Shown in pieces: positions 42,516 to 51,500 of a stretch of 64,000 bases of DNA. The first letter of the stretch is position 1, and the number at the start of each line of letters is the position of its first letter. Where the stretch lies: assembly GCF_964188315.1 (NCBI RefSeq), contig NC_135662.1:25544001-25608000 (forward strand). The letters are read 5' to 3'. A program made the position numbers. The DNA is from Podarcis muralis. Lineage: Eukaryota.

Positions 42516-45500
42516 CTAAGAGGAAAACTAAAAAATAATAAAACCATAAGACAGGAATTTAATAACTCAAAAATAATTGAAATAAACAGCTAAGCTAAAA
42601 ACAGACCAAAATGTTAACTTCTTCATGTCTGGAAAAACTTGCCTGAACAAAAATGTTTTAGCAGACACTGGAAAAAGTGCAGTGAAGGTGCTTGCCTGAT
42701 GTCAATAGGCATGGAGTTCCAAGTGTGGGTGCTGCCATGCAAAAAGATCTATTTTTTACCAGTGTGGTGCACCTGTAATAGCGCCAGTGCTGCGGACTGA
42801 ATTGACTGAATAGAAATATACGGGGTAAGGCAATTCCTGAAGTAAACTGTTTCCAACTGTTAAGGGCTTTACTGTATATACTAATGCTAACAGCTTGAAG
42901 TTGGTCCGGTAACAAACCTGCAATTGGTGCAGATCTCTGAGCAGGTGATATCTGCTGACAGAATCTCATTGCTGTCAGCAGGTGGACTGCAGCATTCTGT
43001 ACTCATGGTCAGTTGCCAGATCCAGCAAAAGGAAACACCACATAAACCAGACTGCAGTAATCCAGTCTTAAATAACAGCCACCTATGGCTTTCACTTCAT
43101 GCTTTCCAGTCGGGTCAGAGGTCGAACATGTGTTGCTTTCTTGCTTCCATCCCTAGTCAACCGACAGTCTTCCTGGAGAGTCTTCACTAACTCCAGTAAT
43201 TCTAGCTTTTCAAGCTGTGCCTGCTCCAGTTCTTGGTGATGCTGCCTCTCTGTTGCCAGCAGGGTACGTATGTCAGACGACATCCTGGACATCTGGCTCT
43301 GAAAAGCGTAAGAGAGTTTTTCAGGTGTTGCATTGGGACTGCCTGTTAACTGTTAGATGCTCACCATTTCCTATCTACACTAGTACCTCGGGTTAAGTAC
43401 TTAATTCGTTCCGGAGGTCCGTTCTTAACCTGAAACTGTTCTTAACCTGAAGCACCACTTTAGCTAATGGGGCCTCCTGCTGCCGCTGCGCTGCCAGAGC
43501 ATGATTTCTGTTCTTATCCTGAAGCAGAGTTCTTAACCTGAAGCACTATTTCTGGGTTAGCGGAGTCTAACCTGAAGCGTATGTAACCTGAAGCGTATGT
43601 AACCCGAAGTACCACTGTATTACATTTGTTTCTTCCCCTTCCTCCAAGGACCTGAGGGTAGCATACAGATAACAGAGCCTAGATTTCATGGATCTGCCCC
43701 TTTCAGGTATCCAGACTGCTGCAAAACAGATCTGTTTCTGCCCACTCTCCAAGGCAAGGGAAAGAGGCTGCATTGTCCTGGAATGACTTGGGCCCAGACC
43801 CAAATGCTTCTGTACCCAGAGTTTAGGGTAAAGCAAAATGTGCATGGGCATTCTGAGGGCTATTTCAATGATTGTGCTCTCCCTGTTATCCCAGTAAATT
43901 TGGGGAAAGAGAACTCGGCAGGTGGGGGATGTGTGGTAGGGAAAGCTCTTCTAGGCCAACTTGGAAGTAGTCTGATTTTTATTAATGGTCCATCTCCAAA
44001 TTAATATAATATTATGTTCAGTTTCAGTTTCAGTTTCTGTTAATTGGTTCTCGTGGGAAACTTGCAGATTCTGGCTTCTCACAATTAACTCAAGGTGGTG
44101 TCAATTTACTCTTGGCAGAAAGCCCAGGTCTGCTTGACCTAGAAACTACTCTGATTGGTTAACGACCAGCACTCTGCTCTGTTATCAAGGGATTGCTAGC
44201 TCAGTTTGAGGTGAGGTGTTGTTAGGAGTAGAAGTGCTGTGTATGGTTATGAGAGAGAGAGAGAGAAAGAGAGGATTTATTTTGTATTGTATTTGTATGC
44301 AGAAACTCTGCTGGTTTTATTTTCTCCTTTTAATAAATCCTGTAAATAGTTATTCTGAGTCTAGCTGACTAGTCATTACTGCCGCAACTAGCTTCTTCGC
44401 TGTGCAGGAAAACTCTGCTACGTTTGGGCTAAAGCCAGTAGGGCTATGCCTGACACTCCAAAGTTCCATGAGGTTATGGGCATTGTGCTGCCAGCCTGAG
44501 TTGCGGTGGTGTCAGCATCAACGGCGTTGGTTCCAGTAGTTCCAGAAGTTGTTGTTCCTGCTGGTGCAGCAGATGGACTCTGGCTGGTTCCTGACCGTGG
44601 TGAGCTGGTGACGCAGTGGACACAAGGACAACAGCTGCAGCGTGTGAGTGCTGGGTGCTGTGGTTCCTGTTTTCTCTCTCGGTGGTCGTGAGTAGCTGGT
44701 TCCGGGTTCCAGGGACATCGCTCTCAAGATGGCCTCACAACCAGTTCAGATGGCTTTTGAGCGTCTGAATGACTCCAATTACTTGCTGTGGTCGGAACGC
44801 ATGCAGGCAGTGCTGCAGAGGGATCGTCTCTGGCAAGTGGTGAGTAAGTTTCCTGCGAAGCCTGATGATGAAGACCTTGATAAAGACCAAAGAGCAAGGG
44901 CCACAATTGTCTTGGGGCTGGAGGATTCCCAGTTGCCGTATGTGAGGGGAATCAAGACAGCTAGAGGTGTGTGGCAAGCACTTAAAGAACTCCATGTGCG
45001 TGAGACAGCGGTTTCCAAGCTGTTCATTCGCAAGGCATTGTACAAGGCAATGTTACAGCCTGGGGTTACAATGCAGGAACACCTACACAGTTTACAGTTA
45101 AAGTTTGCAGCGCTACAGGAAAGAGACTGTGCGTTAGACCAGCAGGAGAAGGTGGCTATTATTCTGAGTTCTCTCCCGGAAAGCTGGGATAATTTAGTTT
45201 TGTCTCTAGAAGGCATACAGGAGCATGATTTATCCGTCAGTTACGTTACTGGGCGTTTGATTGAAGAATGGCAGAAGCGGCAAGAAAGGTCGTTGGCTGC
45301 AGAGGCTTCTACAGGTGGGCGGTTTGAAAGGAGTTCTCATGCCGTGCCAGAGGTGAAGCAAGAGCAGCGTGCCGGTGAGAAGTCAGCGTTTGCTGTTAGC
45401 CGTTGTTTCCGATGTGGGTCTTCAGCGCATCTAAAACGACAATGTCCGGAGTTGGTCAAGTCTCAGTTGCCGGTGCAGGAGCAGAGACGAGATCAGCAGC

Positions 45501-48500: not shown

Positions 48501-51500
48501 TTGCTAGCTCAGTTTGAGGTGAGGTGTTGTTAGGAGTAGAAGTGCTGTGTATGGTTATGAGAGAGAGAGAGAGAAAGAGAGGATTTATTTTGTATTGTAT
48601 TTGTATGCAGAAACTCTGCTGGTTTTATTTTCTCCTTTTAATAAATCCTGTAAATAGTTATTCTGAGTCTAGCTGACTAGTCATTACTGCCGCAACTAGC
48701 TTCTTCGCTGTGCAGGAAAACTCTGCTACGTTTGGGCTAAAGCCAGTAGGGCTATGCCTGACACTCCAAAGTTCCATGATATTAATGGGACTGGAGGAGG
48801 TTTGCCAGTCACCAATAGCAATGCTTCCTTGCTTATGTGAATTGTAGTTAAAATACCTGCTGCTGAAACCATTGGTTCTAAAATAGATGCTGTAGGTGAG
48901 ACTTCCCCAATTTGATGCTCCCCAGCTGTTGTTGGACTTCAACTCCCATCAGTCCCACCTGGCTTGGCCAGTGAGTGATGATGGGAATTGTAGTCCAAAT
49001 CACCTGGACAACACAAGGTTGGGGAAGGTAGCCGTCAGGTGCTTGAGGACTGTGGCTACCTTCTGGAAACTGAAAAAGAGTACAGCATAGAATAAAGCTG
49101 TCAGAAATACCAGTTCGCCAGAGGCAACATTTTAAGGGAGGGAGATGACCTCGTAGCTCATGGCAATACAATTCGTTTACCTTTAGCTCTTCAATCTGAT
49201 TTTGCAAAAGACTCTCCTTTTGCACCATATGCTTCCTTTGAGAATCTAGTCGAGATTCCATCTCATGTTTTGCCTCTTCCATCCGGCAGATCATCTCTGA
49301 CCTTAAAAAACAAAACACTTTTTGTTAATCAGCGTATCTGTCTTTAATCTGAATACAGAGGAAACTTGAAACGTACGCACATTCAGTTTTATGTGCTTGG
49401 CAATTATTATTTTTAAAGGGGGGCAAATGTCTGGGGGAAAAGACTGTGGCAATCCCTCCCGCCATTGTCTTATCTTACTGTTCATCCTGCTTTAATTTTG
49501 AAAAGGATTGCTTGGACTGAAACAAACAACATGCACCTGTTCATATGTAAGCTAAGTTAATACGCTGATTTGTTTCCGCTTGGGAGGAGGGCAGCTGGTG
49601 CAGCTGAACCGTGGGCCCCAGGAAATTGATCATTCACAAAAAGAGATGGTTTGTTTTAGATCAGGACTTACCATTATATGTGAACAGGGCCACTAATTAC
49701 CAAAACAGGAAGTAGTGTTTAATCCATCAGTTTTGCACTAATTATTCTCGTAACAAACAAGAGCTGGTTTTTTTAATCTTCCATCTGTTTTATGCAATAT
49801 CTGCGTCTTCCTTCGGCCCAAGATAAACATCTCATTTTAACAGCCCCAGCTTCACTCACAGGGGCATTTCCCATAAGCTAGTACTGGCAAAGAAGCTTTT
49901 CATTTATGATTAACTTAGATTTTCAGGTTACCACCAAGCAGCGCACAAGCTTATGTTACACAAAAAAGATGTCAACAAATCTTTTATTTCAATCGAATCA
50001 GGATGATAGAATACCAGGTGTAACTCGGGTGGGAAGATAGGAGGAAGAGATGGTGATGGCAATAGAAGCAATTTGCCAAGTTACCAAATTGGTTTCCTGA
50101 GCACCCAGGAAATTGCAGCAATATTGAAGAACAGTCCCCTTGTGTATGTTTTAGAGAGATGGGCAAAATATTTAAGTGTCAGTTCATGCTTTAGGCATGG
50201 CCACACTTGGCCCTCCAGATGTTTTGGGACCACAACTCCCATCATCCCTAGCTAACAGGACCAGTGGTCAGGGATGATGGGAGTTGTAGTCCTCAAACAT
50301 CTGGAGGGCCAAGTCAATCCATGAGCAGCCAAGGTAAGGGGAAGAATAGCTTTACCTGAGCAGTTCTAGTTCCGTTCTCAGCTCTGCCACACAGTTATGT
50401 TGCGCATCATCAGCACTGAGGATGGCATACCCACAGCCTTTGGGGCACTCGCGGCTCCTGTATTCGCACACTGCCAAGTGGCTGTCTAGGTTACGTCTTT
50501 CAACCCGAGCTGGGCAACCTGATTGGAAAGCAGAAGACTGGAGGAAGTGCACCAGAGAGAATTATTTCATTTCCCCCATAATCTTCTGACATGGAGACAA
50601 CGATAGACTGTGCTCCAGAGAGGTCACTTCAGTGCTGCTAATGCAGCAAAAACAATGTGGAAGGCAGCAGTGACAAGCTAGTGGTTTCTGCAGCCCCTGT
50701 GATTCTCCAGCAGTTTGACTTACCCCTAGAGGTGCACTCCATTGTCTCTCAAGACAGAAGGATGCTAACAACAGCAGCACCACCACTCTTGAGGAATCTA
50801 GGTTAGTGTTTCCTGCTGTGCGCAGGTACAAGGATTCTCCAAGGGGTCACTGGCACATCAGCTGCCTTTCAGTTCCCCAAACACCAACACTGAATCCATA
50901 CTTTGCTTTGGCTAGTGTTGGCAACAGGTAGAAATGGAACAGGAAGGGGTGTTCACACAGGCAAAGAAACCGAGAAGGCCCACTCTGCAACAGCCACTAA
51001 CTCTGAATTCCCTTTAGCCTACATTCCAGAACTGGGGGACTGAATTCAGGTGAAAACGGAGATCTACCATCTGTTTGCAAGATAACCATCTCTGCATTCT
51101 ACCTACCGCTATTTGAACAGGGGACCCGGCTGCATTCACACTCGCGTTCATGTCGGTCAATGGATTCCAGTGAACACACCATTTCACAGCCACACTCTCT
51201 GTTCCTGCAGTGAATCTGGAGTTGATTGAGATCGTTCTTCATGTATCTGGGTACAGAAGTTAATTATTTTTATTCTTGCAATACTGCTTGCTAAGATATA
51301 ACATATGCTCCCCAGTTCTCCGAGTGGTAAGACATTCCAGAGTCAGTGCTAACTGATTCTGTTTTCTTTGAATGAGGCCACATGGCAGACCAACCATGAC
51401 TGTGTAATATTTGGTTTAATTGCAAGTATACAGGCAGAGCACAGGCGAAGGTAAACAGCAGATCCCCAGAAAGGCAACTTGCACCACAAGGCATTTCTAG

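What the first reader, a model, noticed from the sequence alone, without database searches (positions are those of the whole stretch)
44015..48779. Very young copia element (identical LTRs) that lacks its RT catalytic core
Seen: the two 457-bp LTRs show no difference by eye, the TSD is intact, and gag, protease, integrase and RNase H read open with intact motifs. Yet RT jumps from ...GKDYDET directly to DLGPVRTYLG at a 5-nt microhomology (GACTT, 47403-47407), and no YVDD is present. Known: in copia RTs roughly 150 residues, including the catalytic YxDD, normally lie between these motifs. Inference: this is a non-autonomous deletion derivative produced by template switching and mobilised in trans by an active copia family, or it was deleted right after insertion. 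Copia elements are patchy in vertebrates and absent from mammals and birds, so a currently active lizard family is notable.
Basis: partly seen in the sequence, partly recalled or inferred. Interest (0 to 1): 0.65.

Follow-up and report, generated by a model that had tools for sequence, protein, structure and literature searches.

The report
Young broken copia retrotransposon in lizard
A recently inserted copia-type retrotransposon in a lacertid lizard genome has lost the catalytic core of its reverse transcriptase, which is an ordinary kind of defective copy in a group already known to have active copia elements.

Summary
Two 457-bp LTRs are identical at 457 of 457 positions and are flanked by a 5-bp duplication, TATTA. 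Between them lies a Ty1/copia gene set in the order gag, protease, integrase, RT remnant, RNase H. About 139 codons of RT are absent, including the xVDD catalytic motif. This shows against 19 of 19 full-length relatives and against Pfam RVT_2, where only profile positions 4-54 and 196-242 of 244 match.

There are two breaks: one frameshift, and the deletion, which also shifts the frame.

The host is a lacertid lizard. The element lies about 2.5 kb downstream of the last VIRMA coding exon.

Whether the copy belongs to a trans-mobilised non-autonomous lineage, was damaged during its own reverse transcription, was damaged after insertion, or is partly an assembly artefact cannot be decided. No lizard genome could be searched.

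Recent copia activity in squamates is already published for anole and corn snake. This is a new member of a known kind, of low interest.

The parts
44010..44014 (.). Left target-site duplication (TATTA)
   Evidence: Same 5 bases directly after the 3' LTR. Chance of a 5/5 match is 0.0011.
44015..44471 (+). 5' LTR, 457 bp. It starts TG and ends GA. It holds AATAAA at 44332 and a GA-rich run.
   Evidence: 457/457 identical to the 3' LTR. End features. Terminal inverted repeat is only 3/10.
44472..44728 (+). Leader between the LTR and the gag start. A primer-binding site is expected here but was not identified.
   Evidence: Sequence read. Only 6 nt of complementarity to the one tRNA-like sequence in the window. 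No tRNA reference set was available.
44729..48269 (+). gag-pol gene, broken. There are 2 breaks, both in the RT region: 1 frameshift, and 1 internal deletion of about 139 codons that also shifts the frame. There are no breaks in gag, protease, integrase or RNase H.
44765..45451 (+). Gag: DUF4219, copia-type gag domain and a CCHC zinc knuckle
   Evidence: Pfam Retrotran_gag_2 E 1.9e-33, DUF4219 E 1.4e-06, zf-CCHC weak at E 0.0092 and below its cut-off. PDB 'Copia VLP protein' 8vvw_A E 9.6e-18.
45593..45826 (+). Protease region (Pol beta-barrel domain with D-S-G)
   Evidence: Pfam Pol_BBD E 6.2e-16. D292 and S293 are invariant in 12/12.
46007..46855 (+). Integrase: HHCC zinc-binding part, catalytic core and SH3-like domain
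   Evidence: Pfam rve E 2.7e-11 and SH3_retrovirus E 3.4e-21. H427, H432, C459, C462, D489, D551 and E587 are invariant in 12/12. PDB integrase chains match down to E 1.4e-13.
47254..47546 (+). Reverse transcriptase remnant: only the two ends of the RVT_2 domain, with the catalytic core absent
   Evidence: RVT_2 profile positions 4-54 of 244 (E 3.8e-13) and 196-242 of 244 (E 0.032, below the cut-off). Relatives hold 134-142 residues in between, carrying xVDD in 19/19.
47769..48266 (+). RNase H domain, open but out of frame with the upstream ORF
   Evidence: D141, E183, D217, H236 and D266 are invariant in 12/12. Model pLDDT is 89.7. Best PDB fold matches are RNase HI chains, 3aly_A E 3.6e-06 with TM 0.72 on the target. 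No Pfam or PDB sequence hit.
48308..48322 (+). Purine-rich tract directly before the 3' LTR (polypurine-tract-like)
   Evidence: 11 of 15 purines, ending in a G run.
48323..48779 (+). 3' LTR, 457 bp
   Evidence: 457/457 identical to the 5' LTR.
48780..48784 (.). Right target-site duplication (TATTA)

Best explanation
Shown: this is one complete-ended copy of a Ty1/copia LTR retrotransposon in a lacertid lizard genome. It lies about 2.5 kb downstream of the last coding exon of VIRMA, in the same orientation. Its LTRs are identical and its target-site duplication is intact, so the insertion is recent. Its gag, protease and integrase form one open 845-codon frame. Its pol cannot yield reverse transcriptase, because about 139 codons including the catalytic xVDD are missing and the RT region changes frame twice. 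The RNase H part is intact but out of frame.

Inferred, and the mechanism I think most likely: the lesions were already in the RNA that was copied. The copy would then descend from a defective sibling. Its RNA would have been packaged and reverse-transcribed by proteins supplied by an intact member of the same family (trans-complementation inside a virus-like particle), then integrated with the usual 5-bp duplication. The deletion itself would have arisen earlier in that lineage, by a jump of reverse transcriptase between two short matching stretches. The identity of the element has a confidence of about 0.95. The confidence given below is for the inherited-lesion, trans-copied part.
For: Identity: LTRs 457/457 and TSD TATTA. 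Pfam domains in the order gag, protease barrel, integrase, RVT_2 ends. Drosophila 'Copia VLP protein' hit at E 9.6e-18. RNase H fold. 30 relatives at E<=1e-10, of which full-length ones are 1,278-1,394 aa.

Defect: the three open pieces align to residues 5-836, 846-893 and 1037-1317 of the 1,321-aa relative P0001. 19 of 19 relatives hold 134-142 residues (median 139) in the gap, with YVDD in 14, HVDD in 4 and FVDD in 1. 8 of 8 relatives match in three frames.

Inherited lesions: two independent lesions sit in about 3.85 kb of interior, while 914 bp of LTR carry no change. That is easier to explain if the lesions accumulated before the last copying event. Defective LTR elements are described as replicating non-autonomously with proteins of intact relatives, and template switches need short homology (PMC6894440, passages). 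Flanking residues in relatives are compatible with a short shared stretch at the junction. Recent copia activity exists in other squamates.
Against: No second copy, solo LTR or copia fragment is in the window (0 matches outside the element), and no lizard genome could be searched. No copy sharing the junction and no intact source copy has therefore been seen. The nearest proteins in two very large libraries are only 33-44% identical, so the family itself is undocumented there. The one-base-scale frameshift could be a sequencing or assembly error, which would leave a single lesion and weaken the two-lesions argument. LTR identity can be inflated by assembly collapse or gene conversion, and the window has two N gaps. 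The LTR ends TG...GA rather than TG...CA, and no primer-binding site was recognised. Both are unexplained.
Confidence: 0.4

Rival explanations
1. One-off dead-on-arrival copy. An intact family member was transcribed, and the deletion (and perhaps the frameshift) arose during the reverse transcription that made this copy, by an intramolecular or intermolecular template jump. No trans-mobilisation of a defective RNA is needed, and no other copy shares the junction.
For: Template switching during cDNA synthesis is an established source of rearranged new copies (PMC6894440, passages). The junction can be read as a short stretch shared by both sides. There is no other copy in the window.
Against: It needs two independent errors in a single cycle, unless the frameshift is an assembly error.
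Confidence: 0.25
2. Damage after integration. An intact copy inserted, and the 139-codon deletion and the frameshift happened later in the chromosome, by replication slippage or illegitimate recombination at a short repeat.
For: Short-repeat-mediated deletions in chromosomal LTR elements are well known (established knowledge). The junction is compatible with a short repeat.
Against: There are no changes in 914 bp of LTR, yet two length changes in about 3.85 kb of interior. By my rough estimate (inference, using a recalled indel-to-substitution ratio of about 1:10) fewer than one small indel is expected in that time. A large deletion would be an extra event on top of that.
Confidence: 0.15
3. 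Assembly artefact. One or more of the LTR identity, the frameshift and the deletion come from collapsing or mixing reads of several family copies, or from a base-calling error.
For: The window is from a scaffolded assembly with N runs of 128 and 141 bases. Multi-copy young repeats are the classic place for collapse. A single-base-scale frame change is the typical size of a consensus error.
Against: The element is joined to unique flanks on both sides with a matching 5-bp duplication. A 5-base overlap is far too short to mislead an assembler (inference). The rest of the 845-codon ORF is clean.
Confidence: 0.12
4. The open gag-protease-integrase frame is a host-adopted (domesticated) gene rather than part of a mobile copy.
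For: It is an 845-codon ORF without stops, with all catalytic residues kept.
Against: Identical LTRs and an intact duplication show a recent insertion. At that age an open frame needs no selection. RT and RNase H remnants still follow it.
Confidence: 0.02

Closest known systems
Copia LTR retrotransposon of the corn snake (5,832 bp; insertions in OCA2 and CLCN2), PMC4657000 and PMC11948899 (passages read)
   Same: It is a Ty1/copia element in a squamate. Its copies are near-identical (two inserts differ by 1 nt; 85 copies at >95% identity), so it is regarded as currently active. It has gag, integrase, RT and RNase H domains.
   Different: The snake element has a full RT domain hit and is about 1.07 kb longer. 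The window's element is 4,765 bp and lacks the RT core. Sequence relatedness was not tested. I did not open the supplements that hold the snake sequence, and I did not fetch that sequence.
Copia families of Anolis carolinensis (Repbase Copia-N_ACar names recalled, apart from 'Copia-6' which is cited in PMC4657000); 1,962 polymorphic Copia insertions among 28 anoles, PMC7561263 Table 1 (section read)
   Same: Lizard host, copia superfamily, and evidence of recent insertion activity.
   Different: The host is an iguanian, not a lacertid. No Repbase or Dfam library is available here, so the relationship is untested. Nothing was seen in that paper about RT-deleted derivatives.
Drosophila copia (PDB 'Copia VLP protein', 8vvw/8s41)
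   Same: The Gag capsid region is homologous at E 9.6e-18 over residues 14-242. Gene order is the same, and the 5-bp duplication is the same (the latter recalled).
   Different: It is a distant relative in an insect host. The canonical element has TG...CA LTR ends and an intact RT (recalled).
Internally deleted, trans-mobilised LTR elements such as mouse IAP I-delta-1, ETn/MusD and plant BARE-2 (all recalled, no call)
   Same: If the favoured reading is right, this works the same way. Those are defective copies with good LTRs and packaging signals that are copied by proteins of intact relatives.
   Different: Those are families with many copies sharing the deletion. Here only one copy has been seen. 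They belong to other superfamilies (the first two) or to plants.

Membership tests
Ty1/copia (Pseudoviridae) LTR retrotransposon | Two long terminal direct repeats bounding an internal coding region | tested here: met
   457/457 identical repeats at 44015-44471 and 48323-48779.
Ty1/copia (Pseudoviridae) LTR retrotransposon | Short target-site duplication (5 bp is usual for this superfamily; recalled) | tested here: met
   TATTA on both sides. Chance is 0.0011.
Ty1/copia (Pseudoviridae) LTR retrotransposon | Gene order gag, protease, integrase, RT, RNase H (integrase upstream of RT) | tested here: met
   rve lies at ORF residues 480-573, upstream of both RVT_2 remnants and of the RNase H fold.
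Ty1/copia (Pseudoviridae) LTR retrotransposon | Copia-type Gag | tested here: met
   Retrotran_gag_2 E 1.9e-33. PDB Copia VLP protein E 9.6e-18.
Ty1/copia (Pseudoviridae) LTR retrotransposon | Copia-type reverse transcriptase (Pfam RVT_2) | tested here: inconclusive
   Only profile positions 4-54 (E 3.8e-13) and 196-242 (E 0.032, below the cut-off) of 244 match. This is enough to type the RT as copia-type, but the domain is not whole.
Ty1/copia (Pseudoviridae) LTR retrotransposon | LTR ends TG...CA with short inverted termini | tested here: not met
   It starts TG and ends GA, and the inverted termini match at 3/10. Moving the boundary to the nearest CA would destroy the duplication.
Ty1/copia (Pseudoviridae) LTR retrotransposon | Primer-binding site complementary to a tRNA next to the 5' LTR, and a polypurine tract before the 3' LTR | tested here: inconclusive
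   A purine-rich tract is present at 11/15. No primer-binding site was recognised. The only tRNA-like sequence at hand gave 6 nt of complementarity, and no tRNA reference set was available.
Autonomous (self-sufficient) LTR retrotransposon | Uninterrupted pol with the RT catalytic motif | tested here: not met
   About 139 codons are absent and there are two frame changes. 0 Y.DD in three frames.
Propagating non-autonomous deletion-derivative family | Several copies at different loci that share the same internal deletion junction | not testable with these tools
   No lizard genome collection is available. There are 0 further copies in the 64-kb window.
Propagating non-autonomous deletion-derivative family | An intact, closely related partner family in the same genome | not testable with these tools
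   The best relatives in the protein libraries are 33-44% identical and mostly of unnamed origin.

The most novel reading that the evidence does not exclude
The copy is one member of a currently propagating, RT-core-deleted copia subfamily in lacertid lizards. The subfamily would keep an intact gag-protease-integrase frame and spread on the reverse transcriptase of an intact partner. It would be a vertebrate copia counterpart of the deletion derivatives known from mouse IAP elements and plant LTR families. In the paper library I found no description of such a lineage, nor of any lacertid copia family. 'copia' with 'Lacertidae' gave 3 papers, none on the subject by title. The search for non-autonomous Ty1 copia in vertebrates listed 15 papers, 0 of which held 'Ty1 copia'. 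Both are weak searches.
Probability: 0.3. Interest if true: 0.4.

Novelty: new member of a known kind. Interest (0 to 1): 0.2.

Why it matters
The finding matters modestly. It documents very recent copia insertion in a lacertid lizard, a family for which I found no copia description in the searched papers. The unusual junction gives a simple sequence tag for counting relatives and tracing a possible non-autonomous lineage. The insertion lies just downstream of VIRMA and carries a polyadenylation-signal-like hexamer in each LTR, so it could serve as a presence/absence marker. Its effect, if any, on the 3' end of VIRMA transcripts could be read from RNA data. It does not change what is known: copia is present and recently active in squamates, and defective copies of active LTR families are commonplace.

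Tried and rejected
1. Other copies in the window. blastn of the element against the window found only itself and the LTR pair. tblastn with 8 relatives gave 0 matches outside the element.

The third protein search returned named hits only from plants, insects and a sea spider among the best 120, with none from a vertebrate. The Atlas gave generic copia clusters, mostly plant. No lineage assignment or test of horizontal transfer was possible. An RT tree is impossible because the core is missing.

3. Primer-binding site. Comparison with the window's only tRNA-like sequence found 6 nt of complementarity, which is chance level. ARAGORN found no tRNA in the window.

4. The promoter/terminator scan of the LTR uses bacterial consensus patterns and is irrelevant here. 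I disregard it.

5. A programmed frameshift as the cause of the first frame change was rejected. It lies inside the RT N-terminus, where full-length relatives read straight through in one frame.

6. Moving the LTR boundary to a canonical CA was rejected because it removes the duplication.

7. Paper searches were too unspecific to use.

8. Age in years. No rate came from any call. Zero differences in 457 sites give a 95% upper bound of about 0.0066 substitutions per site between the LTRs (my arithmetic). With a recalled squamate rate of the order of 1e-9 per site per year, that is under about 3 million years.

9. Not done. The supplements with the corn snake element were not opened and that sequence was not fetched. 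The N runs were left as they are. Nothing in the window was taken for human.

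
Full report
**What is there**

A direct repeat with an offset of 4,308 bp was found in 43000-50000. Extending it base by base gives two copies of exactly 457 bp, at 44015-44471 and 48323-48779, with 457 of 457 identical. Identity collapses just outside, to 4 of 20 before and 8 of 20 after. The five bases before the first copy and after the second are both TATTA. 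The chance of this at local base composition is 0.0011.

The repeat starts TG but ends GA, and its inverted termini match at only 3 of 10. It holds AATAAA at 44332. The 15 bases before the 3' copy are 11 of 15 purines and end in a G run. So the LTRs, the target-site duplication and a polypurine-like tract are real. A canonical CA end and a primer-binding site were not found.

**Coding content**

An ORF of 845 codons starts at 44729. Pfam finds the following in it:

| Domain | E-value | Note |
|---|---|---|
| DUF4219 | 1.4e-06 | |
| Retrotran_gag_2 | 1.9e-33 | |
| zf-CCHC | 0.0092 | weak, below cut-off |
| Pol_BBD | 6.2e-16 | |
| rve | 2.7e-11 | |
| SH3_retrovirus | 3.4e-21 | |

The Gag part matches the solved 'Copia VLP protein' (8vvw_A, E 9.6e-18). 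The integrase part matches several integrase chains (best 7z0h_W, E 1.4e-13). I recall that entry as yeast Ty1 integrase, but did not check.

In an alignment with 11 relatives, the residues expected to matter are invariant in 12 of 12 rows:
- C226 and H234 in the zinc knuckle
- D292-S293 in the protease
- H427, H432, C459 and C462 in the integrase zinc-binding part
- D489, D551 and E587 in the integrase core

**The RT region**

Translating the three + frames shows that the coding sequence continues after the 845-codon ORF in a second frame, for a 54-residue open piece. It then continues in a third frame for a 289-residue open piece that runs to the stop ending at 48269.

The 54-residue piece matches RVT_2 profile positions 4-54 of 244 (E 3.8e-13). 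The 289-residue piece matches positions 196-242 (E 0.032, below the family's cut-off). About 141 profile positions have no counterpart.

Against the best relative from the first protein search (P0001, 1,321 aa, 33% identity), the three pieces align to residues 5-836, 846-893 and 1037-1317.

I compared 20 full-length relatives. One gave no match to the short piece. In the other 19, 134-142 residues (median 139) lie between the two matches. That stretch carries the catalytic motif in 19 of 19: YVDD in 14, HVDD in 4 and FVDD in 1. The interior of the element has no Y.DD in any + frame. tblastn with 8 relatives gives matches in three distinct frames in 8 of 8.

Count of breaks: gag 0, protease 0, integrase 0, RNase H 0. 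RT has 2, namely one frameshift and one internal deletion that also shifts the frame.

**RNase H**

The 289-residue piece has no Pfam domain above threshold other than the RVT_2 end, and no PDB sequence match. With 11 relatives it keeps D141, E183, D217, H236 and D266 in 12 of 12 rows. An AlphaFold model built on that alignment has mean pLDDT 89.7 and pTM 0.88. Its best PDB fold matches are RNase HI chains (3aly_A, E 3.6e-06, TM 0.72 on the target). Next come RT-RNase H chains of foamy virus and cauliflower mosaic virus.

**The junction claim**

Whether they are a microhomology depends on the intact parent sequence, which I do not have. In relatives, the residue after the upstream stretch is F in 18 of 19. 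The residues opposite the start of the downstream stretch are DL in 7 of 19. A short shared stretch is therefore plausible but not shown.

**Host and surroundings**

A 407-codon ORF at 21143-22366 matches human 'Protein virilizer homolog' (7vf2_A, E 6.3e-209). It is 99% identical to VIRMA of Zootoca vivipara, against 93% for Rhineura, 92% for Sceloporus and 90% for Anolis. The host is therefore a lacertid lizard, Zootoca or a close relative.

tblastn with that lizard protein gives 22 exon-sized matches from 11920 to 41512 on the + strand, reaching the protein's last residue. The element therefore lies about 2.5 kb downstream of the last VIRMA coding exon, in the same orientation. Whether that is within the 3' UTR was not tested. 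A RING-finger ORF lies at 53817-54269 on the - strand. The window holds no other copy, solo LTR or copia fragment.

**Relatives**

The word-indexed search gave 30 proteins at E<=1e-10, the best at 33% identity. The exhaustive search of 1.84 billion representatives gave 76,590 hits at E<=0.001. The best identities were only 39-44% (P0151, P0152, P0157, P0164). The search with the 289-residue piece reached 43% at best. Its named hits were from plants, insects and a sea spider, with no vertebrate name among the best 120.

The family is therefore not represented at 50% identity or more in these libraries. I read this as a gap in the databases, because repeats are masked before vertebrate annotation (inference), and not as evidence of novelty or horizontal transfer.

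**Literature**

- Chalopin et al. 2015 (PMC4350176, passages) state that Copia is absent from mammals and birds and present in reptiles.
- Bourgeois et al. 2020 (PMC7561263, section 6 and Table 1) list 1,962 polymorphic Copia insertions among 28 anoles.
- Saenko et al. 2015 (PMC4657000, passages) and the 2025 CLCN2 paper (PMC11948899, passages) describe a 5,832-bp Copia element in corn snake. It has 85 copies at >95% identity, and two trait-causing inserts differ by one nucleotide. The authors consider it possibly active.
- A review (PMC6894440, passages) describes defective LTR elements as replicating with proteins of intact relatives. It also states that template switches need homology between donor and acceptor.
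- 'copia' together with 'Lacertidae' occurs in 3 papers, none about lacertid copia by title.

**How it most likely came about**

Shown: this is a young, complete-ended copia copy that cannot encode RT.

Inferred: because two separate lesions sit in the interior while 914 bp of LTR are unchanged, I favour lesions that predate integration and were inherited from a defective template copied in trans (0.40). The rivals, in order:

| Explanation | Confidence |
|---|---|
| Lesions made in the reverse transcription that produced this copy | 0.25 |
| Lesions after integration | 0.15 |
| Assembly artefact affecting at least one of the key features | 0.12 |
| Domesticated gene | 0.02 |

The first three differ only in timing. 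They can be told apart by counting copies that share the junction, by finding an intact partner, and by reading raw long reads. None of this could be done here.

**Verdict**

The claim of notability is weak, because recent copia activity in squamates is published. This is a new member of a known kind, and its interest is low (0.2).

Noticed in passing
window 11920-41512 (+): The VIRMA (virilizer homolog) gene. There are 22 exon-sized matches to the Zootoca vivipara protein at 74-100% identity, and the large exon at 21212-22360 is 98.7% identical. This identifies the host as a lacertid lizard.
   Followed up: yes
window 53817-54269 (-): ORF of 150 codons with a C3HC4 RING finger (Pfam E 3.9e-09). 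PDB matches are generic RING domains, the best being LNX at E 4.1e-10. The gene was not identified.
   Followed up: partly
window 36041-36381 (ORFs 35911-36626 on both strands): A GC-rich tandem repeat of period 61/121 bp in a VIRMA intron. Its units look partly self-complementary. It leaves several frames open on both strands, with no Pfam hit.
   Followed up: no
window 3110-3208 and 3586-3657 (+), 4001-6000: An Rfam tRNA match (39.3 bits) that ARAGORN does not call lies next to a 48-bp repeat of 2.1 copies. It sits upstream of the most GC-rich stretch of the window (GC 0.55), which holds an N gap at 4747-4874. This may be a tRNA-derived SINE beside a CpG-island-like promoter region.
   Followed up: no
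window 43980-43988 and 48780-48788: The 9-mer TATTAATGG occurs 26 bp upstream of the insertion point and again directly after the 3' LTR. The empty target site would therefore have carried this 9-mer twice, about 30 bp apart. The cause is unexplained and may be a small local duplication in AT-rich DNA.
   Followed up: no
window 44015-44471 (and its twin 48323-48779): The LTR ends in GA rather than the usual CA. It also carries a GA-rich microsatellite-like run and an AATAAA hexamer at 44332.
   Followed up: partly
window 31688-31821 and 33308-33424: A 71-bp unit repeated 1.9 times (96% match) and an 11/20-bp tandem array, both in VIRMA introns.
   Followed up: no
relatives P0002, P0003, P0005, P0006, P0007: The five relatives without Y.DD, all among the seven best hits of the first search, carry HVDD or FVDD instead of YVDD at the RT catalytic motif.
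   Followed up: no
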